Assembly: GCF_035084215.1 (NCBI RefSeq)
Contig: NC_090355.1
Location: 21,638,001-21,702,000 of the forward strand
Reading direction: 5' to 3'
Length of the DNA: 64,000 nucleotides
Source: Heptranchias perlo
Taxonomy: Eukaryota
A program made the translations under genes and the position numbers. The notes beneath the pieces were generated by a model, which was not told where the DNA came from, ran no database searches, and worked only from the letters and a program-made list of their open reading frames with translations. Of the stretch, positions 1-60,100 are shown in pieces (position 1 is the stretch's first letter; each line of letters starts with the position of its first letter).

Positions 1-135
1 AAAGTATGATCGTAAAATAACGACAGAATGCATGACTTCAAAAACTGGGACTGAATTATGTAGGTGTGTCCTGGTACAATTTTCCACACCAGCTAACCCT
101 GCTTCAACTGAAGACCATGTTGGTCCTGATTCCCT

Positions 136-13300: not shown

Positions 13301-16300
13301 AGAGCGTGGAGACCGTATGCTTCAGCCCTGATTCGAGGCTGCTCGCGTCTGGAGGCTGGGACTATAAAGCAGTTCTGTGGGATTCAAAGGTTAGCTGTAG
13401 GCCTTTTAATTTAATTATATTTCCCATTATTGTTTTCTCCTGTCACCACACACACACAATGCTGTTCCTGTCCTGGCCCTATTGTTTACCTGCTCTCTTT
13501 GCACTAACCAGTAGCCATAATGCTGTCAATCAGGAATTAGGCCTTCTGCTTTTTTTCTAGATGATGGTGGCCTGATTGAACATTACTCTTCCATTTAAAT
13601 GTTACATTTTTCTTTAAAATTCAATCTTAAAATGCATGTTGAAAGAGTTAAAAAAAAAAGGTGGAGCTTTTCAACATTTTGGGTACTACTCAAAAGTCAT
13701 TGGAAATCAGGCAAAATTACAGCACATCAACCCAAAGCCTTTATTACACTAAATATTTCCCAGATCATCACTGCTGAAATAGCATTAATTTTACTACCTA
13801 ATAGTTACTTGTTTGATTATTAACACATGTGGCTGTTAAGTCCCAGACATGAAGCTGTTCACTACGTATGGTGAACATTAATAAAAAAAATACCAAACTA
13901 CCTTTGTGAATATAGCTTGTGCAAGTAACAGGATTTGCTGGAAAAAAATGTACTTGACTGAATGACACTATATGGTTTTAAGGATCTAATTAAGCCAGAT
14001 TCCAGCATGAATCATTTTACAGTGTTAGCCACAGCCAAATGGGGATGAGTGCTCACCACTTATGGAATAATATACAGTTTAACATGATAGCAATCACTAG
14101 CTGCTTTACAACACAAATGTAATGAAACCTTCTTGTTTGTGAGTTTCTGCAATGAATTTCAAATGTTTTAATTTGCCCAGTGAAAATGCTGAAAGGGCTA
14201 GTTATTTTCCCGAATTATAATTCTGCGATATATTTCATTACCAAAAGTGCAGTGATGATGGATCAGTTGCGTTTAGATGGTGAACAACTTTATTGGCTAG
14301 TGGGATGATTGGGATGCATAGAAACCAATTATTACATGTAACAGGTTCCAAGCTACTGAGAAATCAATACCGTAGATTTTCTGTTTGCCTGATAAACAGT
14401 GCATGCTGTCGCCCCATAGGATACACTCTACCAACACTAGGGCTCAAACACTTTGTAGGTCAGGAGAGCAATAGTGATAGGGGATTCAATAGTTGGGGGA
14501 ACAGAGAGGCGTTTCCGCGGCCGCAGTTGGGAGTCCAGGATGGTATGTTGCCTCCCTGGTGCTAGGGTCAAGGATGTCACTGAGCGGCTGCAGAACATTC
14601 TGTTCATATCTGTACCAACGAGATAGGTAGAAAGAGGGATGAGGTCCTGCAGGCAGATTTTAGGGAGCTAGGAAAGAAAATAATAAGTAGGACCTCAAAG
14701 GTAGTAATCTCCGGATTACTCCCGGTGCCACGCGCTAGTCAGTATAGAAATAGGATAGAGCAGATGAATACGTAACTGGAGAGATGGTTAAGGAGGGAGG
14801 AGTGGGACCTGCACAGAGCTGGGACTGATGTCCTCGCGGGGAGGTTCACTAGTGCTGTGGGGGAGGGTTTAAACTAATTTGGCAGGGGAATGGGCACCAG
14901 GCACCACTGGAAAGGAGAAACAAAGTGCACAAAGGATTGGGAGAGACAGATGGCACTAGAGTAAGAAATAGTAGGGCATTAGGTGGGATCAGACTAAGAG
15001 AGAAAACAAGAAGGTCTAAGATAGGTTTACAATGACTGTGTGTAAACGCACGAAGCGTGGTAAACGAGGTTGGTGAGCTGCAGGTGCAATTAGCCACATG
15101 GGAATATGATGTTGTGGCGATAATGGAGACCTGGCTCAAAAAAGGGCAGGGTTGTGTACTAAACATTCCTGGATACAAGGTGTTCAGGAAAGATAGGGAA
15201 GGAAAGAAAGGAGTGGGGGTGGTAGTATTGATTAAGGATAATATTGCAGTGCTGAAGAGAGAGGATGTCCTGGAGGGGTAAGGACGGAATCTATTTGGTT
15301 AGAGTTAAGAAACAATAGAGGTGCCATTGCACTACTGGTTGTATTCCATAGGCCACCAACTAGTGGGAAGGATATAGAGGAGCAGATTTGCAGGGAAATT
15401 ACAGAGTGGTGCAAGAGCCATAGAGTAGTGATAATGGGGGACTTCAACTATCCCAATATAGACTGGGATAGTAATAGTGTAAAGGGCAAAGAGGGGGAGG
15501 AATTTTTGAAGTGTGTTCAGGAGAACTTTCTTGACCAGTACATTTCCAGCCCAACGAGGAAGGAGGCAATGCTGGATCTGGTTCTGGGGAATAAGGTGGG
15601 CCGAGCGGAGCAAGTGTCAGTGGGGGAACATTTAGGGAACAGCGATCGTCGTATCATAAGGTTTAGATTAGCTAAGGAAAAGGACAAGGAGCACTCTAGA
15701 GTAAAAGTACTCAACTGGAGGAAGGTCGATTTCAGTGGGATGAGAACAGATCTGGTCCTGGTAAATTGGAATCAAAGATTGGCAGGCAAAACTGTAATTG
15801 AACAATGTGTGGTCTTTAAAAAGGAGATGGTTTGGGTACAATCTAGGTACATTCCCACGAGGGAGAACGGTGGGCAGCTAAAGCCAGAGCTCCCTGGATG
15901 ACAAAAGAGATAGAGAATGAGATGAAGCAGAAAAAGGGGGCGTATGACAGATGTCAGGTTGATAATACAAGTGAGAACCAGGCTGAATATAGAAAGTTCA
16001 GAGGGGAAGTGAAAAAGGAAATAAGAGGGGCAAAGAGAGAGTATGAGAATAGACTGGCGGCTAACATAAAAGGGAATCAAAAGTCTTCTATAGGCATGTA
16101 AATAGTAAACGGGTAGTAAGAGGAGAGGTGGGACCGATTAGGAGATCTACGCATGAGGCAGAGGGCATGGCTGAGGTACTAAATGAGTACTTTGCATCTG
16201 TGTTTACCAAGAAGATGATGCTGCCAAAGACACAGTAAAAGAAGAGTTAGTTGAGATACTGGATGGGCTAAAAAATGATAAAGAGGTACTAGAAAGGCTG

Positions 16301-19300: not shown

Positions 19301-21825
19301 AGAGATTCTTTCGAGTAAGCAGGTGTTCTTCTTGTACAGGCCACTGGATCCTGGGATTATACAGTAATTGTTTGGAATGTACAAAACGTGAAACGAAGAA
19401 AAACTTTGCAGGGTCACAAGGGCAATGTGAGCTGTGTTGCATTTTCTACAATTGGAATGCTGGTAAGCTGAATGGTGAAATGAAATAGAAACTGGGGATA
19501 TTAGAAATGACCAGGTTACATCCTCACTGGCTCAGTGGCTAAATCCAATGTGTGGTTCGGACCCACACAGATTAGGAAGGTCTCTGGTCTAAGCTAAACG
19601 ACTTGGATCTTGTAAGGAGTCTCACAACACCAGGTTATAGTCCAACAGCTTTATTTGAAATCACAAGCTTTCGGAGCTTTGCTCCTTCGTCAGGTGAAGT
19701 ACACTTCACCTGACGAAGGAGCAAAGCTCCGAAAACTTGTGATTTCAAATAAAGCTGTTGGACTATAACCTGGTGTTGTGAGACTCCTTACATTTGTCCA
19801 CCCCAGTCCGTCACCGGCTTCTCCACATCTTGGATCTTAGCTACGATGACAGTGGGGGCCTGACAATTGTCCTCTACTCTGCTGGGTTAGTGAAGGAAGG
19901 TAATCAATTTGGTTCCTACTTCTGATGACTTATGTTGGAAATTTGTGAAAACAAAGTGAAAACAGAATCGGTTATAATGGCCCATGGCTAAAAACCTGCC
20001 AACGCACTCCAGGCTTACAAATGAAAAATGGTCTATTGGGTAATGCACTGGAGTTACCGGTTTAACTAATTCACATTATATGAGTCAGTGCCTTCAGGAG
20101 GGGGAGATTAGAAAAACAAAATGCAAAATAGTGTAGAAAACTTGTCAACTATGGACTAACAAAATATTATTCATAACACCAATTCTGTCGAATGTACCTC
20201 TTCTGATTGTTTTATAGGCTTCGGGTTCCTGGGACAAGACCGTACGTGTATGGGATTCAAGGAATGGGATCCTGATCTTTGTCCTGGAGGAGCACACTGG
20301 CCAGCTGATGGCCCTCTCATTCTCTTCAGATGCAATTCTACTAGTGACAGCAGCAGAAGATGGAACGGTATTGTGTGAAGCTATTCATTTGAAATTGGAA
20401 TTCTTGTGTTCCATAGTCTGCATGCCTGACTCATTCTCATCTGTTCTCGTAGATTCGCGTGTGGGATTGTGAAGATGGAAAATGTAAGAAGATCCTTAAG
20501 GTAACACGACTCAGTCTTTAGTATATCTATTTGATATGATTATGAGCAGTTACACTACTTAGATATTCAAAGGTCAGTTTAACATGATTACAAATGCTTT
20601 TTTTGAACAACATTTTAAATGAGATCTGTATCTTAATTTAACATTATGACAGAATCACCAATACTTGGTAATTCTCATTCCCCCACCCCACCACCACCAA
20701 AAAAAGTTGAACCTTTAATCAGGAGATCTGTACAGAACAGATCTGTTTCTAGTTAATACCGAGGACTGTGACAAAATATAGGAAGACATTAATAAACTTG
20801 CAGAATGGGTGTGTAATTGGCAAATGAATTTCAATATAGATATGTGTGAGGTATTACATTTTGGTAGGAAGAATAAGGGGGCCACATACTGCTTGGATAA
20901 TAAGAGCTTAAATGGGGTAGGGGAGCAGAGGGATCTGGGGATACAGATACACAAATCACTAAAAGTAGCGACGCAGGTTAATAAGGCCATAAAAAAAGCA
21001 AACCAAGCACTGGGGTTCATTTCTAGAGGGATAGAATTGAAAAGCAGAGAAGCTATGTTAAACTTATATAGAACCTTGGTTAGACCACACTTGGAATACT
21101 GTGAACAGTTCTGGTCTCCATATTATGAAAAAGATATAGAGGCACTGGAGAAGGTGCAAAAAATATTTACTATGATGATACCAGAACTGAAAGGATATAC
21201 TTATCAGGAAAGGCTGAACAGGCTGCAGCTCTTTTCTCTAGAAAAGGCTGAGGGGTGACCTGATCAAGGTCTTTAAGATCATGAAAGGGTTTGATAGGAT
21301 AGACGTAGAGAAGATGTTTCCATTTGTGGGGGACTTCAGAACTATGGGCCATAAATATAAGATAGTCACTAATAAATCCAATAGGGAATTTAGGAGAAAC
21401 TTCTTTACCCAGAGAGTGGTTAGAATGTGGAACTCGCTACCTCAAGGAGTAATTGAGGCGATTAGCATAGATGCATTTAAGGGGAAGCTAGATGAACACA
21501 TGAGGGAGAAAGGAATAGAAAAATATCCTGATAGGGGTCGATGAAGTAGGGAGGGAGGAGGCTCGTGTGGAGCATAAACACGAGCATGGACCTGTTGGGC
21601 CGAATGGCCTGTTTCTGTGCTGCACATTCCACGTAATGCTATGTACTCTGATCTGACCAATGGACCTCCTTCTTTGCAGATTCTATTACCTTTTCTTTTT
21701 TTCCCTAGGGGATGTTGGACTTCATCTTTAGTTGCCAGTTTTCTCCTTCTAATACCCTTCTGACTGCAGGAACTTATGATTATAAACTGACAATAAAAAA
21801 AGGCACATTGAGTCTATCAACATAG
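1279..21825 (+). CDS. WDR38: WD repeat-containing protein 38, 9 coding exons, 307 aa; join(1279..1347,6833..6953,8915..9031,13292..13389,18484..18564,19340..19462,20218..20367,20453..20500,21709..21825)
   Basis: All introns are GT-AG with consistent phases, giving a 924-nt CDS. WD40 motifs ([66 protein letters not shown]) match recalled human WDR38. In-frame stop at 1249 precedes the ATG. Syntenic with RPL35/ARPC5L/GOLGA1. Confidence 0.92.
2898..3687. mobile_element. MITE-like non-autonomous DNA transposon
   Basis: Terminal inverted repeats GGGCCAGAATTTGCTGT / ACAGCAAATTATGGGCCC, no ORF; diverged relative at about 37450-38060. Confidence 0.7.
3690..4290. repeat. Degenerate (TA/CA)n-rich low-complexity array, continuing at 2690-2897
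   Basis: Recurring ACAGTAATA, TACACCATGT and CATATATAC units. Confidence 0.75.
4350..4880 (-). mobile_element. Degenerate CR1 3' fragment
   Basis: LEYYVQFW...ERVQK; GAATCATAGAA tail. Confidence 0.75.
5100..6250 (+). mobile_element. Degenerate Gypsy/Ty3 LTR retrotransposon pol (end of RNase H plus integrase)
   Basis: Frameshifted peptides [35 protein letters not shown] (zinc-binding), [20 protein letters not shown]. Confidence 0.85.
6833..6953 (+). CDS. WDR38: WDR38 coding exon 2 ([19 protein letters not shown]...NGHT)
   Basis: tttatgcAG acceptor, CAG|GTACG donor, WD40 repeat. Confidence 0.9.
8915..9031 (+). CDS. WDR38: WDR38 coding exon 3 ([27 protein letters not shown]...)
   Basis: ccaacAG acceptor, AAG|GTATG donor, WD40 repeat. 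Confidence 0.92.
10010..10715 (-). mobile_element. CR1 3' fragment
   Basis: [17 protein letters not shown]...YCVQFWA; GAATCATAGAA tail. Confidence 0.85.
11060..11540 (-). mobile_element. Old CR1 3' fragment
   Basis: RKHFFTQR and LEYCVQF-like remnants. Confidence 0.6.
13292..13389 (+). CDS. WDR38: WDR38 coding exon 4 ([33 protein letters not shown])
   Basis: ttcttAG acceptor, AAG|GTTAG donor. Confidence 0.92.
14455..17840 (+). mobile_element. CR1 LINE, long degenerate copy (ORF1 SGNH-esterase remnant, ORF2 APE endonuclease and RT, 3' tail)
   Basis: [52 protein letters not shown]; (TTCTATGA)-like tail; many stops and frameshifts. Confidence 0.92.
18484..18564 (+). CDS. WDR38: WDR38 coding exon 5 ([27 protein letters not shown])
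   Basis: ttttcaacAG acceptor, TTG|GTAAC donor. Confidence 0.88.
19340..19462 (+). CDS. WDR38: WDR38 coding exon 6 ([12 protein letters not shown]...[17 protein letters not shown])
   Basis: cttgtacAG acceptor, CTG|GTAAG donor. Confidence 0.92.
19520..20105 (+). mobile_element. Old SINE-like repeat interrupted by the palindromic Penelope element; related copy at about 57238-57480
   Basis: GGCTCAGTGG head; blocks shared with the 57.3 kb copy (GATCTYAGCT, ACAATTG, CTGGGTTAG, ATGAARAATGG, CCTTCAGGA). Confidence 0.55.
19611..19828. mobile_element. Non-autonomous Penelope-derived palindromic element with two hammerhead motifs (WDR38 intron 6)
   Basis: 90-bp arms at 19611-19700 and 19703-19792 (1 mismatch); tail CCCCAGTCC.TCACCGGC.TCTCCACAT shared with the 44.4-45.9 kb element; flanking direct repeat CTTGGATCTT at 19602-19611 and 19829-19838. 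Confidence 0.88.
20218..20367 (+). CDS. WDR38: WDR38 coding exon 7 ([13 protein letters not shown]...AAEDGT)
   Basis: ttttatAG acceptor, ACG|GTATT donor. Confidence 0.92.
20453..20500 (+). CDS. WDR38: WDR38 coding exon 8 ([16 protein letters not shown])
   Basis: ctcgtAG acceptor, AAG|GTAAC donor; preceded by an 85-nt intron. Confidence 0.9.
20748..21625 (+). mobile_element. CR1 LINE 3' fragment (WDR38 intron 8)
   Basis: [42 protein letters not shown]; very similar to 55325-56175. Confidence 0.9.
21709..21825 (+). CDS. WDR38: WDR38 last coding exon ([21 protein letters not shown]...ST*)
   Basis: Long polypyrimidine tract plus tAG; aligns with human GVLDVAHTCAFTPDG; TAG at 21823-21825. Confidence 0.85.
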   Translation, partial: GMLDFIFSCQFSPSNTLLTAGTYDYKLTIKKGTLSLST

Positions 21826-22259: not shown

Positions 22260-22650
22260 GTCTCACCTCTGAATCAGAAGGTTGTGGGTTCAACTCCCAC
22301 ATCAGAGAGTTGAGCCCATATTCTAGGCTGACACCTCAGTGCAATCTTTCGGCTGAGACGTTAAAACCCAGCCACCGTCTGCCCTCTCAGGTGGATGTAA
22401 AAGATCCCATAGCACTATTCGAAGAGCAGGGGGGAATTCTCCCCATGTCCTGGCCACTATTTATCCAACTAACATCACTAAAACAGATTATCTTGTCATT
22501 TATCTCACTGCTGTTTGTGGGATCTTGCTGAGCACAAATTGGCTGCCATGTTTCCCTACATTCCAAATGACTAGACTTCAAAATACTTTATCTGTAAAGC
22601 ACTTTGGAACCTCCTGAGGCCGTGAAAGACGCTATATAAATGCAAATTCT
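22260..22650 (+). mobile_element. tRNA-derived Deu-domain SINE (SacSINE/AmnSINE-like)
   Basis: B-box GGTTCAACTCC, central CTCAGGTGGATGTAAAAGATCCCA, L2-like tail GCTATATAAATGCAA; family name from recall. Confidence 0.7.
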
Positions 22651-22692
22651 TTTGGTTGCAAGCTTGGGCCATTAGGCGGCAACAAGTCTCCA

Positions 22693-25280
22693 CTTGTCCC
22701 AGACTCACCCATCACCATCCCTGGGTATGTCCTGTCCCAACGGCAGGACAGACCGACCAGAGGTGGCGGGACAGTGATATACAGTCAGGAGGGAGTGGCC
22801 CTGGAAGTCCTCAACATTTACCCTCGACCCCATGAAATCTCATGGCATCAGGTCAAACATGGGCAAGGAAACCTCCTGCTGATTACCACCTACCGCCCTC
22901 CCTCAGCTGATGAATCAGTCCTCCTCCATGTTGAACACCACTTGGAGGAAGCACTGAGGGTAGCAAGGGCACAGAATGTACTCTGGGTGGGGGACTTCAA
23001 TGTCCATCACCAAGAGTGGCTCGGTAGCACCACTACTGACCGAGCTGGCCGAGTCCTGAAGGACATAGCTGCCAGACTGGGCCTGCGGCAGGTGGTGGGC
23101 GAACCAACACGAGGGAAAAACTTACTTGACCTCGTCCTCACCAATCTACCTGTCGCAAATGCATCTGTCCATGACAGTATTGGTGGGAGTGACCACCGCA
23201 CAGTCCTCGTGGAGACGAAGTCCCGTCTTCGCACTGAGGATACCATCCAACATGTTGTGTGGCACTACCACCGTGCTAAATGGGATAGATTCAGAACTGA
23301 TCTAGCAGCTCAAAACTGGGCATCCATGAGGTGCTGTGGGCCATCAGCAGCAGAATTGTATTCCAGCATAATCTGTAACCTCATGGCCTGGCATATTCCT
23401 CACTCTACCATTACCAACAAGCCTGGGGATCAACCCTGGTTCAATGAGGAGTGTAGAAGAACATGCCAGGAGCAGCACCAGGCGTACCTAAAAATGAGGT
23501 GCCAACCTGGTGAAGCTACAACTCAAGACTACATGCGTGCTAAACAGTGGAAGCAACATGCTATAGACAGAGCGAAGCGATTCCACAACCAACGGATCAG
23601 ATCAAAGCTCTGCAGTCCTGCCACATCCAGTCGTGAATGATGGTGGACAATTAAACAACTAACGGGAGGAGGAGGCGGCTCTGTAAACATCCCCATCCTC
23701 AATGACAGCGGAGTCCAGCACGTGAGTGCAAAACACAAAGATGAAGCGTTTGCAGCCAGAAGTGCCGAGTGGATGATCCATCTCGGCCTCCCCCCCGATA
23801 TCCCCACCATCACAGAAGCCAGTCTTCAGCCAATTCGATTCACTCCACGTGCTGAAGACTTGTGCTCCAGAACTAGCTGCGCCTCTAGCCAAGCTGTTCC
23901 AGTACAGCTACAACATTGGCATCTACCCAACAATTTGGAAAATTATCCAGGTATGTCCTGTCCACAAAAAGCTGGACAAATCCAATCCGGCCAATTGCTG
24001 CCCCATCAGTCTACTCTCAATCATCAGTACTACCAAGCGGCACTTACTCACCGATGCTCAGTTTGGGTACTGCCAGGACCACTCGGCTCCAGACCTCATT
24101 ACAGCCTTGATCCAAACAGACAAAAGAGCTAAATTCCAGGTGAGGTGAGTGACTACCCTTGACATCAAGGCAGCATTTGACAGAGTGCGGCACCAAGGAG
24201 CCCTAGTAAAATTGAAGTCAATGGGAATCAGGGGGAAAACTCTCCAGTGGCTGGAGTCATATCTGGTACTGGTTGTTGAAGGTCAATCATCTCAGCCCCA
24301 GGACATTGCTGCAGGAGTTCCTCAGGGCAGTGTCGTAGGCCCAAACATCTTCAGCTGCTTCATCAATGACCTTCTCTCCATCATAAGGTCAGAAATGGGG
24401 ATGTTTGCTGATGATTGCAGTGTTCAGTTCCATTCGCAACCCCTCAAATAATGAAGCAGTCCGAGCCCGCATGCAGCAAGACCTGGACAACATCCAGGCT
24501 TGGGCTCATAAGTGGCAAGTAACATTCGCGCCAGACAAAGACCATCTCCAACAAGAGAGTCTAACCACCTCCCCTTGACATTCAACGGCATTACCATCGC
24601 CAAATCCCCCATCAACATCTTGGGGGTCACCATTGACCAGAAACTTAACTGGACCAGCCATATAAATACCCTGGCTACAAGAGCAAGTCAGAGGCTGGGT
24701 ATTCTGCAGCAAGTGACTCACCTCCTGACTCCCCAAAGCCTTTCCGCCATTTACAAGGCACAAGACAGGAATGTGATAGAATACTCTCCACTTGCCTGGA
24801 TGAATGTAGCTCCAACAACACTCAAGAAGCTCGACACCATCCAGGACAAAGCAGCCCGCTTGATTGGCACCCCATCCACCACCCTAAACATTCACTCCCT
24901 TCATCACCGGCACACCGTGGCTGCAGTGTACCATCCACAGGATGCACTGCAGCAACGCGCCAAGGCTTCTTCGACAGCACCTCCCAAACCTGCGACCTCT
25001 ACCACCTAGAAAGACAAGAGCAGCAGGCACATGGGAACACGACCACCTGCACGTTCCCCTCCAAGTCATACACCATCCCGACTTGGAAATATATCACCGT
25101 TCCTTCATCGTCGCTGGGTCAAAATCCTGGAACTCCCTAACAGCACTGAGAACCTTCACCACACGGATTGCAGCTGTTCAAGGAGACAGCTCACCACCAC
25201 CTTTTCAAAGGCAATTAGGGATGGGCAATAAATGCAGGCCTCGCCAGCGATGCCCACATCCCATGAACGAATAAAAAAAA
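22693..25280 (+). mobile_element. CR1/L2-superfamily LINE of a second family (APE endonuclease and RT remnants, A-rich tail)
   Basis: YRPP, VGDFNVHH, LDLVLTN, SDH, LDIKAAFDRV, GVPQGSVVGP, FADD; ends CCCACATCCCATGAACGAATAAAAAAA. Confidence 0.9.
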
Positions 25281-28785: not shown

Positions 28786-36155
<7,370 letters not shown>

Positions 36156-36186: not shown

Positions 36187-36644
36187 CAACTGGGGGCGGG
36201 CTCAGCATTACCACGTGACCGGCTCTACCACCTGCACTTTATGGAGGGGGGAAGAGGGTAGAAGAGATGATCACTAATTTAAACATTTAAGTTTAAACAC
36301 CTATCAATAGCTTTTTTGAAAGATATTAGTATAATATCTTTCAGATCGTATGGTTCGAATTAAGACAGCGAAATACATACTTTTGTATTTTTTTAAAAAA
36401 AATTGCCTCCTCTCTCAGATGGTGTATTCCAAAGGTTGTTTCCGGTTCCGGGGCGAGTTTCCAGCAGGCCCAGGTTCGAGTGGAGGCAGCGAGATTGTTG
36501 GGGGGGATCGGGAAGGAGGCGATATTTTAATGCAGCCTCCGGTTAAATAGAGAGCGGGGATTCGAAGGAGAGCGATTTTTTTTTAAAAGGGAAAAAAAAT
36601 AATAATAATCCTTGGTAACACTTGATTCAATAATAAACAGGCAA

Positions 36645-36784
36645 ATGGCGAGAAACACGCTCTCCAACAGGTTCCGGAAAGTCGACATTGACGAGTACGA
36701 CGAGAACAAGTTTGTGGACGAGCAGGAGGAGGCGGCGGAGCAGCAGGGTCCCGACTCGGTGGAAGTTGACAGTCTAATCAGGCA
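36645..36784 (+). CDS. ARPC5L: ARPC5L coding exon 1
   Basis: ATG at 36645; ends at the U12 donor ATATCCTTT. Confidence 0.93.
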
Positions 36785-39700
36785 ATATCCTTTGGAAACC
36801 GGCTTCCCTCGCTCCCTCCCTCCCTCGGGGCCTCTAACCGAGCGGGCGAGAGGCGCTCTCACCTGCGGCGTGGGTGGCGGGCGGGGGCAAAGAGAAGAGA
36901 GCGGCACACCCATCCACACAGACAGACAGGGAGGCGGCGAGCGGAGGAGCAGAAAGGTGACAAGCTCTCCACCACTCCCCCACTCCCACCACAAGATATG
37001 CCGTGACACCCAGAGCCGCATCCGCTACCCCCAACTCTCTGATTCGGAACCGTTCCCGGTTACAAACCGCAGCCTAGATCCCGAGTATTAACGGCGGGCT
37101 GGGGGGCTGTGCTTCGGCGGTCCCGCGATTTAAATTGGTCGCACTAAATACTTAAAAGGATTTTTTTTTTTTGCTTGCTGTTTGTCGAGATGTCGCTTCA
37201 TTGACCACTTTTTATGAATCTGTTAATAGTCTCCCAGTCTGTTGCTCATACATACGATTTCATTGCATCTTATGCAAAAACTAGTCACTGTGGATACTTG
37301 TTCGAAGACCTTTTTATCTAAGGTTTCGGCTAAGTTGGAGACTAGGGAGTCAGTGTTCAGTCATGACGTTGAAAAGACAACCAGATCATGATGCACTCTT
37401 CATATGGATACACTTGATTAACCCCTTGTATTTTGTCTCCATAAAATAAGGGCGAGTTCACGATGCTTGCCATTATTAGTTAGTAAAAAAATCCAGCAAC
37501 TTGTGACGAAGAGGAGACACGCCATGAGTTCCAATTCTCCACAAATCGCCGGGAGCTTCCCTAATGAAGTTCATTGTGTGTCATGAAATTGCTGAATTTA
37601 CGCCGCTAATACGAATTAATTTTGCCGCATCCATTTAGGGCTGGTAATTCATGTCGTAAGGACCCTGTTAATGACGTGATTTATGGCCCTGACGTGCCAC
37701 TCAACCTTGGTGGCCCAGAAAGGGAACAATAAAATTGTAGAGTTTCATTTCGGCAAGTAGCAAATTGTTCCTCGAGGTATTTTTAAAAAAAATCTTACTT
37801 TTCCTTTTTCCCCTCGATCCACATTCTATCTCTAATTTACCCTATTTCCTTGTCTGCTGTTCACTCTGTTTATTTCTCTATCACTTTGTTTAATTGGTTA
37901 AGGAGATAGACCATTGGCCATGACATTCATGACGTCCCAGATGAGACGTTGACATTGCACCAGTAACAATTTGCAGTGCAAATATAGTGCGATCTGAAGG
38001 GTGAGGTAAAAATTCTGTTCAGGTCGCTTGCCGTGCCATTCCAGCAATTTCTGGGCCAATGTATCTGGATTTGCTGTTATATAACACCTGCAAAGGTATG
38101 CTTCCTCTCCCTTGTATCCATTTCCACTTTCCTCCCTAAAACTTGTTAAAGCTGGTAACGTGCACTAATTCGTGCAATGTTTCTTAATTGAACAAAAATA
38201 CTTTTGTAGGTGGAAAATTGTATTGTAGCCATGAAGGATTAGTAATCATCTTTTGGTTGTCAATTTTTCCAGAGATCTTGTCCTGTTCTATATAACTGGC
38301 ATAGATTTGTATCGAGTCATTCGAGTTTAGTAATTATTGGTAACAAATTGGGAATTGAAGATTTGCATATATTGGTATTTATTTGAATTTTTAAAATCCT
38401 AATGGTATTGTAATTTCTAATTCCTAGAACTGTTCAGTTATATGGTGCTTGGTTTTGACTTTCCTTGTGGTGTAAAAGGATGAGTGAAATACAGTATCAG
38501 TCTAAAAGCTAATTGTCAGTGTATAACTGATAGCAGTCGCATCATGTCCAAAACTATGTTTGACTGTGTGTAAACCTGTAACTACAGAATACACCTTGGG
38601 TTTAAATGCTTGAAATAAAACTTAGTATTATTCCTTGACCTGTAATAATGTACAGGTGACATGCTTAGTGCGTTCCATGCAGCATTAAGGAACCCTCCAG
38701 TCAACATGAAGAATCAAGCAGTTAAGGTATTTAATTAAATTAAGCTAGTTTTTCAAATTATTTGAAATGTCTGACAAACTATGTTGAATAGAAATGTGCT
38801 CAAAAATGCAGTGGCTTGTCTCCATAAATGCATTTATATATCTTGAGTAGGGAAACAGCTGCCATTAGTTTTTTTTCCACAATAAAGCACGATAATAAGA
38901 GTGACAAATATGAGTACCATAACTAAACCATTTTAATCTGGATAAATTGTTAAAATTCATTTTTACAAATAAGCTGTCTTGATGTAACTTATGATTTTAA
39001 AAAAACAGTAGTCACCCAAGCTTGATGAACCAATAGAAAATTGTACCTATACATTTGGGGGGAAAAGTCAAACTTGGAACTTGTGCTATTTTCTCACAAT
39101 TTTGCTGATAATTCTGGTTCATCACCAGAAATCTTCATGGGGTTTGGAATGTACAAAGCTATCATAGTTTTAAGTTAAATTGATTTATAGTCATCTTAAA
39201 CCTAGTTTGTAATGGCTGCTAGTTCGCATAATTATACATATAACTGGCACTATAAAGTGTTTTGCTCAGAACACAGTGGCTGAGGTGGGAAACGGAAAAT
39301 GTTGCCCTGCTGTGATAGTGGCTTTGATCGTAGTAAATAGGTTTCAGAATAGTAGAGGCAATTTTAGGACAACTATTTTCATTCTGTACTTGAGCAAAAA
39401 CGTTTACCAGATCTCATCTATCTGCACAATGGTAAATTTCCTGCAGCTATTTGACTAAAATAATATAATGGTGTTTCTGTTTTGCTGCATTAATTTAAGG
39501 GGTAACATCACCTCGCAGTTCAGAACTTTTTTGCAAGATTTCAATTAATGGCCTTTTGATTACAAATTTAAATGATCATGGTATTCCTATTGTAATCGCC
39601 CTAATTGGTGTAAGCCCCTAATATTTGGTCTGTCGTAATCTATATAAAAAAAAAATATTGCTGGATGTGTAGCAAGCTATTTAAAACATAGACCAACAAT

Positions 39701-42966: not shown

Positions 42967-44449
42967 TCACAGTTGAAACTTGTGCTCAGGTTTGTCAGTG
43001 TATTAACACAGCAGCTGTTGTAGGTCAATGTCTACTCCTAAAGACTACAATACACAATTCACCTCAAATGATAAACCTGCTCTGTATTTTTCTGATTAGA
43101 CAGTTCCTGAAAGAAAGTTACCCAGAACACTAATAATTAATAGAACATACCACAAAACAAAGGAAACCAGGTGGTTAGGCCTGTTTGGTTAATATATTTC
43201 CATTAAAGTTAATATAATGAAATGCTGACTGTTCCTTAATTTTCCTAAAACCATATTCTACCTGCAGCAACAATTCAAGCCAAACACCATGTTCAGTTTA
43301 ATAGCTAGTGATGGCACTTGATGTAAAATTCACTAGGTGTGCACCATAAGCATAATTTGGTAAAACCAAGTTGTTTCCCTGGGATAAGCTCACTTCATAC
43401 CATGTTTAATTTGAGAACGGTGACTAAATCTTGCATCTTTTGGTTTTTGCTTCTACATCTTCCACACTCATCGTTGCCCCGACATTACTAAACTGCTTTG
43501 GGACATCCTGAGGTCGTGAAAGGCATTATATAAATACAAGTTCTTCATGGAAAGGTAATAGCAACACCATCAATAATCTAGCCCATTAATTTCAAATTCA
43601 ACATTAAGTATGTAATTTAAAACTACACTGGTAAACATTTGCTGAAAAATATTTATACAGTTGCAAGTCTCTGGAAGTCACTCATAAGTCCAGTCTAGAT
43701 TAACTACACACTATTCCAACATTGCTGTAAACTGCTCTGTACTGTGATATTTTTCCAATTGGACACAAATGCCCAAACCCTTACTACAGCTGCCCTGTCT
43801 AAGTTCAGCTAACTCAGCGTAAACCAACCTCTTGCTGTGTTTTTCTTTACTGGTATTTTAATCTTTGATTCTCTTACACTCATTCCATTCGTCATAATTT
43901 GTTTTCAGCTTTCAGGAAGACCTGAAATATTGCATTTGTGAAAATGAATAAATATAATTAGGAATGGAATTCTCTTTCCTCTTCCCTCCCTCCTCCCCCA
44001 AAATTTTTTTCAATTTTATCTTTGTATTGTGGCAACTGACCTGGTTTCCACTTCTACTATGCAAATAGGTGACCTACTTCAAGCAAGGACGATTGCTTTT
44101 TATTAGCTTAAACTCTGAATTGTCCCGGGGAGCTCTGACCAAATTTATTACACTAAGCTGACCATTACGCTGACCCTACTGGAACTATAAACTGTGATTA
44201 GCGCTATATAGATCACATTTTGGTGTGTCAGTTTATGCAGGTTTTCCAATAGGGGTTTGAACATTTAAAAAATATGCCAGCAGCCAGAAATTCATCATCC
44301 AACTGTACACAATTATCAGGCCAAACTGAATTTTGAAAGAAAAATGACACCTAGGGAGCTGGCCAATAAAAGGTTATTTGGTTAAATTCAAGATATTATT
44401 GTAAACAATTTTACAACACCAAGTTATAGTCCAGCAATTTTATTTTAAA

Positions 44450-44488
44450 TTCACAAGCTTTCGGAGGCTACCTCCTTCGTCAGGTGAA
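44450..44488 (-). ncRNA. Minimal hammerhead ribozyme motif, second (element-sense) copy
   Basis: Reverse complement of the 45777 copy; the only difference is in the stem II loop. Confidence 0.8.
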
Positions 44489-44724
44489 CGATGTGAAAAT
44501 GAAATCCTCGAAATGAAATCGCATTTATAATTCACAGAACAATGCTTGGTGAGTACAGACAGTTTTTTCAACTGCCCGTTGCCAAGGCAATCAGTGTGCA
44601 GACAGACAGGTGTTACCTGCCAGGTCACACAGAATATACAAATCACCAAAAAAAAACAACAAACAAAAAAAAAACAGAGATAGAGAGGTAGAAACATAGA
44701 AAAGACAGCAACTGACCCGTTATA

Positions 44725-45723
44725 TTAAAAACAGATAACATTTGTTCGCTGGTGGGGTAACGTGTAGCGTGACATGAACCCAAGATCCCGGTTGAGGCCG
44801 TCCTCATGGGTGCGGAACTTGGCTATCAATTTCTGCTCGACGATTTTGCGTTGTCGTGTGTCTCGAAGGCCGCCTTGGAGTACGCTTACCCGAAGGTCGG
44901 TGGATGAATGTCCATGACTGCTGAAGTGTTCCCCGACTGGGAGGGAACCCTCCTGTTTGGCGATTGTTGTGCGGTGTCCGTTCATCCGTTGTCGCAGCGT
45001 CTGCATGGTCTCACCAATGTACCATGCTCTGGGGCATCCTTTCCTGCAACGTATGAGGTAGACAACGTTGGCCGAGTCACAGGAGTATGAACCATGCACC
45101 TGGTGGGTGGTGTCCTCTCGTGTGATGGTGGTATCTGTGTCGATGATCTGGCATGTCTTGCAGAGGTTACCGTGGCAGGGTTGTGTGGTGTCGTGGACGC
45201 TGTTCTCTTGAAAGCTGGGTAATTTGCTGCGAACGATGGTCTGTTTGAGGTTGGGTGGCTGTTTAAAGGCGAGTAGTGGAGGTGTGGGGATGGCCATAGC
45301 GAGGTGTTTGTCCTCATTGATGACATGTTGAAGGCTGCGGAGAACATGGCGTAGTTTCTCCGCTCCGGGGAAGTACTGGACGACAAAGGGTACTCTGTTG
45401 GTTGCGTCCCGTGTTAGTCTCCTGAGCAGGTCTATGCGATTTTTTGCTGTGGCCCGTCGGAACTGTCGATCGATGAGTCGAGCGTCATATCCCGTTCTTA
45501 CTAGGGCGTCTTTCAGCGTCTGTAGGTGTCCATCGCGTTCCTCCTCGTCTGAGCAGACCCTGTGTATTCGCAGGGCCTGTCCATAGGGGATGGCCTCTTT
45601 GACGTGGTTAGGGTGGAAGCTGGAAAAGTGGAGCATCGTGAGGTTGTCCGTGGGCCTGTCTGTCTGCACACTGATTGCCTTGGCAACGGGCAGTTGAAAA
45701 AACTGTCTGTACTCACCAAGCAT
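44725..45723 (-). CDS. Penelope-like ORF fragment: RT thumb/C-terminus plus GIY-YIG endonuclease (332 aa)
   Basis: Motifs VVYLIRC...YIGET..LRQRMNGH...GEHF...EQKLI...GLN; no internal stops; RT catalytic core absent. Confidence 0.8.
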   Translation of the reverse strand: MLGEYRQFFQLPVAKAISVQTDRPTDNLTMLHFSSFHPNHVKEAIPYGQALRIHRVCSDEEERDGHLQTLKDALVRTGYDARLIDRQFRRATAKNRIDLLRRLTRDATNRVPFVVQYFPGAEKLRHVLRSLQHVINEDKHLAMAIPTPPLLAFKQPPNLKQTIVRSKLPSFQENSVHDTTQPCHGNLCKTCQIIDTDTTITREDTTHQVHGSYSCDSANVVYLIRCRKGCPRAWYIGETMQTLRQRMNGHRTTIAKQEGSLPVGEHFSSHGHSSTDLRVSVLQGGLRDTRQRKIVEQKLIAKFRTHEDGLNRDLGFMSRYTLPHQRTNVICF

Positions 45724-45776
45724 TGTTCTGTGAATTATAAATGCGATTTCATTTCGAGGATTTCATTTTCACATCG

Positions 45777-45815
45777 TTCACCTGACGAAGGAGGAAGCCT
45801 CCGAAAGCTTGTGAA
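45777..45815 (+). ncRNA. Minimal type I hammerhead ribozyme motif in the pseudo-LTR
   Basis: TTCAC-CTGACGA-A-GGAGG AAG CCTCC-GAAA-GC-TT-GTGAA: core boxes, 5-bp stems I and II, palindromic AAGCTT stem III. Confidence 0.8.
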
Positions 45816-48080
45816 TTTAAAATAAAATTGCTGGACTATAACTTGGTGTTGTAAAATTGTTTACAATTGTCAACCCCAGTCCATCACCGGCATCTCCACA
45901 TCAAGATATTATGGTCAATTAAAAATATTATGACCAACCACACCTTCACAAGGAAACAGCTTATTTAAGGAATAAAACATTTGGTGGAGATCTGTCAAAG
46001 GGTTATTTTGCTTCTGCCCTTCCGTCGAAGCTGAAGATGGTGTTGCTTAGACCAAATTCAACTTCTACGAGAAAGAAACTTGAATTAGTTCAAGCTGTAT
46101 TTTTACATTTCATTTTAAACAAACTTGAAAGGTCACCCCAATGAAACTTCTGGAAGTTTGCCACTTGTGCACTTATTGGCTACGCCAGGGTATGATTTTT
46201 TTCCCACGATTGCTGTCAGTGTCTGTTCGATCTTGCAAGAAAAAATATATAAAATATTAGACACCCATTGAATACCATAGCCACATTACAGTCCGTGAAA
46301 AAACAAAATAAAGGTTACCCCATGTCAACTGACAGTGGTAACAGCCAATCCCAACACAAACGCACCCTTTGAATCGCAAGTCATGATGGAGCCCAGAGCT
46401 GATCTTTTCAAGCTAACCTATCGAGAGAGGCTGGAATTTTAATACAAACTTCAACTTCCAATATATTTTCCATAAGTGCAGTAACGAATAATTGCTCAAG
46501 GAAATCACAGCAACTAAAGAATCCAACCACAATTTCAGCAAGTCTAAAGGAATTTTAATTGGAAAGTATTGCACCTACAAATTATTCCCAAGCAAACACT
46601 GGTCAGTTGCTGTATCCAATCCAGGTTCACAACACCAAGGAAGAGAAATTAGTCGCCAAGGCCAATCAATGCATGTACAAAGATTACACGCCACAGCATA
46701 TTTTTATACAAATAAAAGTGCATTAGTTGTTCATATATAACATATATATAATATATTGTGTTATATATACACACACATGTTGCTCTTGCTTTCAACAAGA
46801 ATTCCTGGTTTCACAACAATGGCAGGGTGAAGAAAATACTGATGGAACGTCATTATTACAACAGCAATGCTTTCTGCCTCTGAAAGGCTGTAAATAATTT
46901 ATGCATCCATTTTTACATCTAGTGTGTTACAACCTTGTTCCAGTTTCTATACACAATAGAGTTCCCTTTATAAAGACTCCTTTGGAATGTTTTTTTTCTC
47001 TTTTGCATTAACCCGGATATGAGAACTAACTGTACCTTCTCCTTGCCCTACTGTTTATATCAAGCATCAAATCCCTGGTTTCTGGTTCTTCCAGCACCAT
47101 TTTCACGCAACACTACTGCATTCTTACACTGCAATAAAACCACATGATAACCATTAAACAGCAACAACACATGAAAGGGATCTAAATGGTGTAATGAATC
47201 AATAACAGCATGTTGTACAATTATTTGTGTTTCTGAGAGATAAATAAATTTGAAAAAGGGCAACAGTGGTATTTTCAGATCAATAAGAGGAAAACCGATT
47301 GCAATATTTAACTTGGTCTTTTGTTTTCTGATCATCTTTCACTGGTGCAATTTCTGCCTTGCAGGTTTCCAGTTTTTACTAATCCAAATGACACCAAATG
47401 ATTCAACTGTAAACATGTAAATGCAATTTAAAAAAAAAAGATGTTCTATTTGGACCATGATACTGAGTTCAAAAGCAGCTAAGGACAGCACCGCTGGCCT
47501 CCTCCTCTGGAACAGTGGGGATGGGTGAGGGAAGGAGCATGACTGTCATTTTGCTCGAATTTTACTCCTAACCTTATGTTCTAACAGTAAGAAAGAAAAT
47601 TATAACTTAAAAAAAAAACAGATGTTTGTAAGCATTCATTAATGTTTGCCCATGAAGGAGCAGCATATATACAAAGATGTAAGAGTATGACAGCATGTCA
47701 CTTCAAACAGTGTTTCATTCAAATCAGTTCAGGACTGTATTAAAGCTACAGGACCAAAAATAATTGTACCTCTTTCACATTTAGAAACTACAGAATTTCA
47801 AATCCATAATATCTGTCCACAGTCTGCTTTTTTTCAATGAATTTCATTCCCCATAGGAGAATGTCTTCATCTGCATTTAAAAGATGCATTAATATAAAGT
47901 ACCAGTACTATTAAATACTTGTAAACAGCTGGAAAACTTGTAGTCCTGTATTAAAAACACTGCCATAACAGTGACTGAAAACACTAATAAGGATATCTTA
48001 TTATCAATAGCTGTAGTGTTCATCCAATGAGTTATGTTGATAGTTCTTTGAGTGTGCACGTTCCAGACGTTGCAATTGGT

Positions 48081-57100: not shown

Positions 57101-60100
57101 TGAATACATACTCTCTTACTGGAGGAAAAAAGGAACTGTTTTATCCACTTCACAACAGCAAATTACTCTGAATCTAATTCTCTTTATTTTTAAAAGTGAG
57201 TTCTAAGTATTTCTTCTTTAAATTAAAAAAAAATAAAGTCCCTGTCTATGCTGGGCTAGCTGATCTCAGCTGGATCAATGGTAGAGATGGCACAATTGGC
57301 TGCAACGTCACTGGGTTAGGGAAACTGGCCAGTGTTCCTGATCACTATCCACCAACTCCTGCTGGAAGTCTAGGCTCACATATGAAGAATGGCTACTGAG
57401 GCAAAGCATCTCTAGATGACTAGGCTATGGAACCATATTCCTGCAGGGAAACAAACTCCTTCAGGAAAAATGGGAAGGGGTGAAGGTTGGAAAAAAAATA
57501 ATAACTGCCAAGTTTTAAAAACACACCAAACAGTTGCTGGCCCATGATCAAAGCCACCGTAGGAACATAGGAACAGGAGTAGGCCATTCAGCCCCTCGAG
57601 CCTGCTCCGCCATTTGATAAGATCATGGCTGATCTGTGATCTAACTCCATATACCTGCCTTTGGCCCATATCCCTTAATACCTTTGGTTGCCAAAAAGCT
57701 ATCTATCTCAGATTTAAATTTAGCAATTGAGCTAGTATCAATTGCCGTTTGCGGAAGAGAGTTCCAAACTTCTACCACCCTTTGTGTGTAGAAATGTTTT
57801 CTAATCTTGCTCCTGAAAGGTCTGGCTCTAATTTTTAGACTGTGCTCGCTACTCCTAGAATCCCCAACCAGCGGAAATAGTTTCTCTCTATCCACCCTAT
57901 CTGTTCCCCTTAATATCTTATAAACTTCGATCAGATCACCCCTTAACCTTCTAAACTCTAGAGAATACAATCTCTCCTCAAAACTTAACCCTTGAAGTCC
58001 GGGTATCATTCTAGTAAACCTACGCTGCACTCCCTCCAAGGCCAATATGTTCTCCCGAAGGTGTGGTGCCCAGAACTGCTCACAGTACTCCAGGTGCGGT
58101 CTAACCAGGGTTTTGTATAGCTGCAGCATAACTTCTGCCCCCTTGTACTCTAGTCCTCTAGATATAAAGGCCAGCATTCCATTAGCCTTATTGATTATTT
58201 TCTGCGCCTGTTCATGACACTTCAATGATCTATGCACCTGAACCCCTAAGTCCCTTTGGACATCCATCTCTATATTATTTTTGATGCTAAGTGTGAGAAT
58301 GTGGATTTTCTTCACGCCTTCAGATCACAGCACACCACACTGCTCCCCTTGAAACAGCCCATTTGGCCTAGAGGAATCTACCATGGATAGCAGTAAGTCC
58401 TTCTAGGCCACCCTGCCCGCTGCCATTACTGTGGATGGTGGAGGAAAGGCTGGATGGACAATGAAACTAAAGCCTGGGGCTGTGACTATTTGGACCTCTA
58501 AGTGGAATGCATTACAGTACAGACTACATCAAATCAAACATGTGCCAGGTGAGTGCTGTGGCCAGGGTTTCTTGGTGAAGCAGGAAGAGCAGGCTCGAGG
58601 GACTGAAAGGAATATAGGAACAGGAGTAGACCAATGTTCCTATGGTGGCTTTGATCATGGGGCCAGCAACTGTTTGGTGTGTTTTTAAAACTTGGCAGTT
58701 TTTATTTTTTTTCCAACCTTCACCCCTTCCCATTTTTCCTTCAAGGAACGGCAATCCTGGCTCAATTTCATTGATTTCCTCCTCTTCCAAGGAAAAAGAA
58801 AATTATGCACACATCTCCTTGAAGAGTCAGCGACCTCTTATTCTTTGGCTGGCATAGGGGTCAACCACCACTGAATGGACCAGGAGGTCAATTTGCTCGT
58901 TGCAAGATTCCATCACTTATGACTTGAAGCAAAATGTGATTTTGATGATATCATCTGATGGTGCCCTGGTTAACAACCTTGAGTTTGACTCCCAATAGGC
59001 ACCATGGCATATTGCATGATAGTCCTTCACCACACGGACTGCAGCGGTTCAAGAAGGCGGCTCACCACCACCTTCTCAAGGGCAATTAGGGATGAGCAAT
59101 AAATGCCAGCCACGCCAGCGACACCCACATCCCATGAACGAATTTTAAAAAGTCCTTTGTGTACAGTCTCTGCCACAACATTCTCTTTGTAACAGATGCA
59201 AAACAAATATATACAGATAAGACCATGAAACTTTTCAAAAATATAAATCTGTGACACATCACTTTATAGCAGTAAACAGATGGGGGAAAATAATTAACCA
59301 GTGTAGCTCGCTCACTATGGCTGAATTTATATTGATCCAGAAACAATGACAGGTGACTTTACACATGGTCACTAAGAAAATAAAACCTGACCATGGTTGT
59401 GTTAAATTAAAGTGCATCCAGCCACATTGTATAGAATTAGCATGTTTAAATTGTACATGTGGCTGAGACAGAAAATAACTTACTTTTCTCTGACTGGCCT
59501 CCAGTAGTTCCTGTCTCTCAATCACCTGCAACTTGAGATCACTCAACTGGTTCTGCACTGCCCCTTCTCTTTCCGCTGTTGAACTTTTATAGGTTTCACT
59601 TTCCATTTGTTGCTGATGCAGCTGTGAAATTACAGCTTCATTATCTAGAGGAATATTAAAAAAAGATTTTCAAAGAAATGGAATGTAATTAAACATATGT
59701 AATTAAGAACCCCTCATCACTTCCACAAGTGAAGCACTATGCAATCTTAAAACTGAAACAACCACAAAATACTTTGGGGACAAAAAACATCTATAAAGAT
59801 TCATCTTTCTCTCATACTATTCAGTCTACTTTCCTGCAGACACAAATATAGAAAATATGTACTATGTGTCTATGAAAAGCCAAAGCTTTGATCCACAATG
59901 CAAAACTGTATCTTCTAATCTCTTTTAACATTCCATATCACACAGCTCCACAGCCTAGGCCTTTGCTGTTTTGTAATTAGCTACTAGAGGGTGCACAAGA
60001 GCAATCCTGGGCAAATCACAATGCAACTTTACCACATTCCTGTGGATAAGCACCTAATCTTTACTCGGCATCTCTTCCTAAACTCACCAAGAAAGCCATT

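What the first reader, a model, noticed from the sequence alone, without database searches (positions are those of the whole stretch)
19602..19838. Protein-free 217-bp mobile hairpin made of two back-to-back hammerhead ribozyme motifs
Seen: a 90-bp/2-nt-loop/90-bp palindrome plus a 36-nt tail, flanked by a 10-bp direct repeat. Each arm carries CTGACGA-A-stem II-GAAA-(G/A)CTT with a TCAC/GTGA stem I. Its stem II (GGAGC/GCTCC) differs from that of the 44-46 kb element (GGAGG/CCTCC) by a compensatory pair swap, which supports the RNA structure from within this window. Known: Penelope-like pseudo-LTRs carry minimal hammerheads whose palindromic stem III allows cleavage as dimers. Inference: this is either an extreme truncation-plus-inversion product or a member of a non-autonomous, retrozyme-like family mobilised by a Neptune-type element.
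Basis: partly seen in the sequence, partly recalled or inferred. Interest (0 to 1): 0.72.

Follow-up and report, generated by a model that had tools for sequence, protein, structure and literature searches.

The report
Run-off hairpin stub of Penelope retrotransposon
This 217-base hairpin is a one-off, head-to-head pair of very short copies of the end of an abundant Penelope-type jumping gene, not a self-spreading ribozyme element; both copies stop at what is likely the start of the element's RNA, a clue to how these elements insert.

Summary
The hairpin, tail, 10-bp target duplication and both hammerhead motifs are real. But its central junction occurs once in the genome. Among 100 copies of its lineage not chosen for length, tailed arms run from 13 nt to over 1.5 kb, into a Neptune-type RT-endonuclease ORF. 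It is therefore the short end of the published inverted-pLTR-plus-tail insertion of Penelope-like elements, not a retrozyme family. The two ribozymes lie on opposite strands. Any transcript holds one, predicted to be locked in a 90-bp duplex, and the host-gene-strand copy has lost its dimer palindrome. What is non-random: 43 of 100 tailed arms end in one 20-nt zone. Its sharp upstream edge sits about 29 nt after a TATA-like box and shifts about 10 nt in a lineage with a longer spacer (p=4e-8). Best reading: both cut DNA strands likely prime reverse transcription at two sites beside the ATG, both cDNAs run off the RNA's 5' end, and the ends are joined. No excess of ends at the predicted ribozyme cut; no cap signature. 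This scan found such hairpins, and suggested both ideas, on other DNA.

The parts
19602..19611 (.). left target-site duplication CTTGGATCTT (last T may also be element sequence)
   Evidence: sister copies have different duplications, mostly 12-15 nt including overlap with the element
19612..19700 (-). tail-less inverted arm: pseudo-LTR end from the inner RT start zone back to the predicted transcription start (A at 19700 on the - strand)
   Evidence: (97% to long ORF-bearing copy L062)
19661..19697 (-). minimal type I hammerhead motif with intact AGCT palindrome; predicted cut after 19665
   Evidence: features from PMC4209133
19701..19702 (.). 2-nt junction (AC) between the two arms, unique in the genome
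19703..19792 (+). sense arm, starting at the A of an initiator-like TCACTTC that lies 30 nt after TATATAT in long copies
19706..19742 (+). minimal hammerhead motif with G>A at 19735 that breaks the dimer palindrome; predicted cut after 19738
   Evidence: GAAAGCTT in 158 of 173 arms, GAAAACTT in 1
19793..19828 (+). 36-nt tail, equal to the 5' UTR that directly precedes the ORF's ATG in tandem copies
19829..19838 (.). right target-site duplication (first C may also be element sequence)
19323..19462 (+). upstream exon of the WD40-repeat host gene (the insertion is intronic)
   Evidence: Pfam WD40 E=1.6e-7; AG/GT ends read
20217..20379 (+). downstream WD40-coding exon of the host gene (3' end approximate)
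   Evidence: Pfam WD40 E=1.8e-11
44398..45902 (.). longer insertion of the same layout from a younger lineage: 1.26-kb tail-less arm with RT C-terminus and endonuclease, plus a short tailed arm

Best explanation
It is a single insertion of two head-to-head, 5'-truncated copies of the pseudo-LTR end of a Neptune-type Penelope-like retrotransposon, likely made when both strands of a staggered cut primed reverse transcription and both cDNAs ran off the RNA's predicted 5' end. Steps: (1) inferred: the pseudo-LTR is transcribed from an initiator about 30 nt after a TATA-like box, a few bases upstream of the hammerhead. (2) Shown in vitro for the anole element (PMC11167929), inferred here: the protein cuts both strands and starts reverse transcription inside the RNA at two sites that bracket the tail. 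(3) Inferred: one target end primes at the outer site beside the ATG (tailed arm), the other at the inner site (tail-less arm). At the 5' pseudo-LTR only about 90-130 nt of template remain, so both cDNAs are short, like a strong-stop product. (4) Inferred: the cDNA ends are joined with small trims and microhomology, and the stagger is filled in as the target duplication. (5) Predicted: the product lacks the TATA box and ORF and its ribozyme is locked in the duplex, so it is likely a dead end.
For: Same lineage continues into coding sequence: long copies match the 902-aa ORF at about 90% identity. That ORF has an RT (Pfam RVT_1 E=3e-10) and a CX4CX2C linker before the endonuclease. Of 100 copies, 82 have an adjacent inverted arm, mostly starting within a few nt of one inner site, and 75 of these 82 have their own target duplication. 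The tail-less arm is longer by >15 nt in 19, the tailed arm in 9, and they are within 15 nt in 54, so neither arm is always a copy of the other. A few copies have arms of different haplotype (L003, L014, L026). Ends of tailed arms: 43 of 100 in -100..-81, 3 in -125..-101, 6 in -300..-126. Tail-less arms: 41 of 75 in the same zone; both arms there in 34 copies. The edge follows the TATA box: it is 8-9 nt upstream of hammerhead C3 in this lineage (TATA 36-37 nt away) and 16-19 nt in lineage A (41-47 nt away). Arms reaching 10-21 nt: 2 of 56 vs 24 of 49, Fisher p=3.6e-8. Both window arms end exactly at the A 30 nt after TATA. TATATATA plus TCACT was also noted in a rotifer pLTR (PMC3846280). Forcing the hammerhead fold costs 57-61 kcal/mol.
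Against: No RNA 5' end was measured. A cap-derived extra G is not enriched at edge junctions (15 of 45 vs 24 of 66, p=0.84). Lineage B has a blurred edge, with ends spread from TATA+18 to +30. Sorting young arms into A or B uses the same extension score, and the two arms of a copy are not independent, so the p-value is optimistic. Arms usually share a haplotype (7 of 49 differ at two or more diagnostic columns vs 72% of random pairs), which fits one RNA primed twice but also fold-back. In the anole assay the two strands showed no difference in start site, and the D. virilis element has a TATA-less promoter. One pair of loci shares a private junction.
Confidence: 0.72

Rival explanations
1. One cDNA folds back and copies itself (self-priming, as proposed for rotifer Penelope), and the endonuclease trims the tail from one end.
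For: Proposed in PMC3846280 for head-to-head repeats (passage). Arms mostly share haplotype. Many junctions have short palindromes or microhomology.
Against: Either arm can be much the longer: 19 tail-less vs 9 tailed of 82, e.g. L061 452 vs 1590 nt and L047 449 vs 257 nt. Some copies have arms of different haplotype. The anole protein extends both strands in vitro.
Confidence: 0.12
2. Twin priming is right, but the hotspot is a reverse-transcriptase stall at the 5' edge of the folded hammerhead rather than the RNA's 5' end.
For: In this lineage the edge lies only 4-5 nt upstream of stem I. No cap signature. Lineage B is blurred.
Against: In lineage A the edge moves about 10 nt away from the hammerhead and keeps its distance to the TATA box.
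Confidence: 0.1
3. The hairpin is a member of a non-autonomous, retrozyme-like family that is transcribed and re-inserted as a unit by the Neptune protein.
For: Many near-full-length look-alikes (40 scored of 1,610 candidates). Some junctions recur: 8 of 50 loci and 73 exact hits of another. L237/L238 share a private junction, are 97.6% identical over 210 bp and have unrelated flanks.
Against: The window junction is unique; 38 junctions in 50 loci. The recurrent junction has the tail on either side and occurs with all three stem II haplotypes. There are no head-to-tail hammerhead repeats, no TATA box, and one ribozyme per strand.
Confidence: 0.04
4. Hammerhead self-cleavage creates the template end that sets the arm length.
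For: Core and palindrome are conserved across the family. An earlier scan note reports one copy starting at the cut.
Against: The cut is at -57, but the window arms run about 36 nt past it. The -60..-56 bin holds 4 tailed and 2 tail-less ends, like its neighbours. In the anole element, uncut RNA was the main substrate.
Confidence: 0.02

Closest known systems
Insertions of endonuclease-positive Penelope-like elements with inverted 5'-truncated pLTR, one-sided 30-40 bp tail and target duplication (PMC8557442 Fig. 2 legend; PMC3846280; passages read)
   Same: Head-to-head arms, tail on one arm only, target duplication, hammerhead in the pLTR, TATA plus TCACT initiator-like motif
   Different: Here both arms are only about 90 nt. 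A pile-up of ends that tracks the TATA box is not described in the passages read.
Anolis Poseidon element PAc in vitro (PMC11167929; main text read, supplements not)
   Same: Two internal RT start sites bracket the tail; both DNA strands are cut and extended
   Different: PAc starts 111-118 nt inside the ORF, here beside the ATG. PAc is Poseidon clade. Joining into an inverted insertion was not shown.
Minimal type I hammerheads of metazoan PLEs (PMC4209133; results and discussion read)
   Same: Extra base after A9, G10.1-C11.1 pair, 4-bp stem I, palindromic stem III; pairs on opposite strands 100-700 bp apart were noted there
   Different: Stem II is 5 bp (7-8 bp in the Schistosoma motifs there). 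One arm has lost the palindrome.
Non-LTR retrozymes (bioRxiv 10.64898/2026.07.22.740005; part 1 of 5 and passages read, supplements not seen)
   Same: Protein-free, PLE-derived, type I hammerhead
   Different: Retrozymes are head-to-tail tandem repeats with two or more hammerheads in consecutive units; this is one inverted pair with variable junctions.
LINE-1 twin priming and LTR-element minus-strand strong-stop DNA (recalled, not read)
   Same: Second target end primes a second cDNA, giving an inversion; a short cDNA runs off the RNA 5' end
   Different: Here both start sites are fixed and internal, both cDNAs can cover the same sequence, and the run-off products are integrated.

Membership tests
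EN+ Penelope-like insertion | sequence is the pLTR of an element with an RT plus GIY-YIG ORF | tested here: met
   long copies of the lineage run into the ORF at about 90% identity; RVT_1 hit; the endonuclease got no Pfam hit and was judged by its VY..YIG motif
EN+ Penelope-like insertion | inverted 5'-truncated copy, one-sided 30-40 nt tail, target duplication | tested here: met
Neptune clade | CX2-5CxxC linker between RT and endonuclease | tested here: met
   CHGNLCKTC in L141-L144; definition in PMC8557442; shared with Nematis
Neptune clade | placement in an RT phylogeny | not tested
   no reference set fetched
minimal PLE hammerhead | CUGANGA and GAAA core, extra base after A9, G10.1-C11.1, stem I | tested here: met
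   N7 varies (C 80, G 80, T 8 of 173) while the rest of the core is nearly fixed
minimal PLE hammerhead | palindromic stem III for dimer formation | tested here: inconclusive
   met on the - arm (AGCT), not met on the + arm (AACT)
minimal PLE hammerhead | self-cleavage | not testable with these tools
   predicted blocked by 57-61 kcal/mol in the full hairpin
non-LTR retrozyme | head-to-tail tandem units with at least two hammerheads | tested here: not met
   one motif per strand; no tandem unit
non-LTR retrozyme or SINE-like family | copies inherit one fixed structure and junction | tested here: not met
   one possible exception, L237/L238
non-LTR retrozyme | circular RNA intermediate | not testable with these tools
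   only contig-level runs of uncertain type were offered

The most novel reading that the evidence does not exclude
Penelope-like elements make a strong-stop-like cDNA. Reverse transcription starts about 90-130 nt from the RNA's own 5' end on both cut strands, so a third of insertions are pairs of run-off products that record the transcription start to the base. A hairpin transcript primed the same way would regenerate itself exactly, because the two cDNAs would anneal, which may explain the twin loci L237/L238.
Probability: 0.5. Interest if true: 0.6.

Novelty: new member of a known kind. Interest (0 to 1): 0.33.

Why it matters
The element itself is one of thousands of dead stubs in this genome and matters little. 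The population of stubs bears on an open question, how Penelope-like elements integrate and why they leave inverted repeats with a one-sided tail. It gives base-level predictions (RNA start at TATA+28..30, a different start site for each target strand) that the existing in vitro system and 5'-end sequencing can test, in a genome that holds many intact, near-identical ORF copies.

Tried and rejected
Rfam: no hit at gathering score; E-value mode gave only generic hairpin families. Pfam found no family in the 345-aa window ORF. Cap signature at run-off junctions: not enriched. Peak at the predicted ribozyme cut: none. Sequencing runs: no RNA holder listed; the four best runs were contigs of one sample and uncertain type, covered the repeat but not the host exons, and cannot show starts, so no conclusion. 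The first BLAST-type search is biased to 217-nt look-alikes and was not used for length statistics. Segmental duplication for L237/L238: flanks are unrelated; gene conversion was not excluded. Paper searches for a described palindromic PLE mini-family, twin priming or strong-stop in PLEs gave no paper whose title or abstract start states this; most subscription papers and Repbase are not covered.

Full report
Observation. The window holds two 90-nt arms at 19611-19700 and 19703-19792, 99% complementary and 2 nt apart, inside a 10-nt direct repeat at 19602-19611 and 19829-19838. The 217 nt between the repeats fold at -168.4 kcal/mol, z = -29. Hammerhead cores start at 19710 on + and 19693 on -. 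The one arm mismatch (19735, G>A) changes GAAAGCTT to GAAAACTT on the + arm. Rfam reports nothing relevant. The site lies between two WD40-coding exons of a + strand gene. The genome is 3.25 Gb; earlier scan notes call it a shark (not tested here).

Parent element. The arms match the ends of the 44-46 kb element at 82-88%. That element belongs to a young lineage with 31,333 exact hits of a 27-mer and intact ORFs. The 902-aa protein has an RT domain and the CX4CX2C linker that marks Neptune and Nematis. In tandem copies the tail runs straight into the ATG. The window's own lineage has 3,723 exact hits of a 26-mer spanning the arm end and tail. Its long copies continue through a 3' UTR into the same ORF at about 90% identity, so the lineage is not protein-free.

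Family or by-product. The 28 distinct loci fetched from the best look-alikes have fixed outer ends but many different centres. To avoid length bias I took the first 100 of the 3,723 matches (all on contig C1; 1.5-3.5 kb upstream each, only 200 nt for L105). Tailed arms range from 13 nt to over 1.5 kb. Eighty-two have an adjacent inverted arm, and 75 of those have a target duplication of their own. The window's junction occurs at one locus. Of 1,385 hits per strand with back-to-back cores, the first 50 loci show 38 junctions, the commonest in 8 (hand count). A frequent junction built on a TGA overlap (73 hits) has the tail on the right in 14 and on the left in 6 of the 20 fetched, and occurs with all three stem II haplotypes, so it forms repeatedly. 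Against this, L237 and L238 share a private junction with unrelated flanks, one possible case of re-mobilisation or conversion. The layout of inverted pLTR, one-sided tail and duplication is described in PMC8557442 and PMC3846280 (passages), and opposite-strand hammerhead pairs in PMC4209133.

The hotspot. Ends are not uniform. Measured from the base after CTCCTTACATTT, 43 of 100 tailed arms end at -100..-81, 3 at -125..-101 and 6 at -300..-126. Forty-one of 75 tail-less arms end in the same zone, and 34 copies have both arms there. Long copies show TATATAT 36-37 nt before hammerhead C3, with an initiator-like TCACT 30 nt after it. Both window arms end at that A. I then read 90 of the first 100 matches of the young 27-mer. 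These contain lineage A (TATA 41-47 nt before C3) and lineage B (38-40 nt). From 192 arms I set aside 43 long reference arms, exact duplicates and 4 arms extending 45 nt or more. Arms reaching 10-21 nt upstream of C3 were 2 of 56 in the old lineage and 24 of 49 in A (Fisher p=3.6e-8). In both lineages the edge falls at TATA+27..30. Lineage B (32 arms) peaks at +30 and +35 but spreads up to +18. Caveats: A/B sorting uses the extension score, and paired arms are not independent. A cap-derived G was not enriched (15 of 45 vs 24 of 66), and no usable RNA data were available. D. virilis Penelope uses a TATA-less promoter (abstract and passages), so the promoter type is not general, although a rotifer pLTR has TATATATA and TCACT.

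Two primings or fold-back. The anole protein cuts and extends both strands and starts at two internal sites that bracket the tail (main text). Here the tail-less arm starts near one inner site and the tailed arm at an outer site beside the ATG. Either arm can be the longer (19 vs 9 of 82 by more than 15 nt), which one fold-back direction cannot give. Arms usually share a haplotype (11.6% difference at diagnostic columns vs 40.5% for random pairs), with a few clear exceptions. This fits two primings, mostly on one RNA or one source locus. Self-priming as proposed in PMC3846280 remains a rival.

Ribozyme. The motif meets the minimal-hammerhead features of PMC4209133 (results and discussion). Across 173 arms, stem II occurs as GGAGG/CCTCC, GGAGC/GCTCC and GGAGA/TCTCC, but also in 22 uncompensated and 14 G-U forms. 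In the hairpin each strand carries one motif, and its complement is transcribed first. Forcing the fold costs 57-61 kcal/mol. The copy on the host gene's strand lacks the palindrome. Arm ends show no excess at the predicted cut, -57, in line with uncut RNA being the main substrate in vitro. The retrozyme definition (tandem units with two or more hammerheads) is not met. Supplementary figures of these papers were not seen and may show similar short insertions.

Verdict. This is an ordinary by-product of a known class, seen many times by this scan. The idea that fold points mark the RNA start and the two-ended priming idea were also noted there; I had written both down before looking and do not count those notes as support. 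The added value is the lineage-shift test and the junction statistics. I did not find the run-off reading in titles or abstract starts of my paper searches, which miss most subscription journals. Interest 0.33.

Noticed in passing
L237 (G000:C1:84426343) and L238 (G000:C1:85752994): Two hairpins 1.3 Mb apart share an unusual junction found nowhere else, are 97.6% identical over 210 bp, and have unrelated flanks: re-mobilisation of a whole hairpin, or gene conversion.
   Followed up: partly
window 44398-45902: Insertion of a very young lineage: 31,333 exact hits of a 27-mer, all 128 scored ORF matches at 100% identity, and several loci with a complete 918-codon open frame. Likely recently active.
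   Followed up: partly
window 19777-19792 and 45851-45867: A small stem-loop just before the tail keeps pairing through different sequences in the lineages (TGTAAG/CTTACA, GTACG/CGTAC, TGTAAA/TTTACA): a candidate structure for the inner RT start site.
   Followed up: no
L062 and L126, just after the ORF stop: An insert of about 85 nt, absent from L110 and L069, begins with CTGACG and a GAGTC/GACTC stem; it looks like a degenerate second hammerhead (judged by eye).
   Followed up: no
window 19323-19462 and 20217-20379: Exons of a WD40-repeat gene on the + strand; the hairpin would form a 90-bp double-stranded RNA in its intron.
   Followed up: partly
window 36609-37091 (+): Frame containing [23 protein letters not shown], resembling the first exon of an Arp2/3 subunit ARPC5-like gene (name recalled).
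   Followed up: no
window 15242-15901, 20782-21258, 22618-25274, 29587-30504, 57641-58324: Many decayed LINE-like endonuclease and RT frames (CR1/L2-type by recalled resemblance).
   Followed up: no
L173-L181: Several young insertions occur as identical repeats inside duplicated minisatellite-rich sequence near C1 3.9-4.0 Mb; exact duplicates were dropped from arm counts.
   Followed up: no
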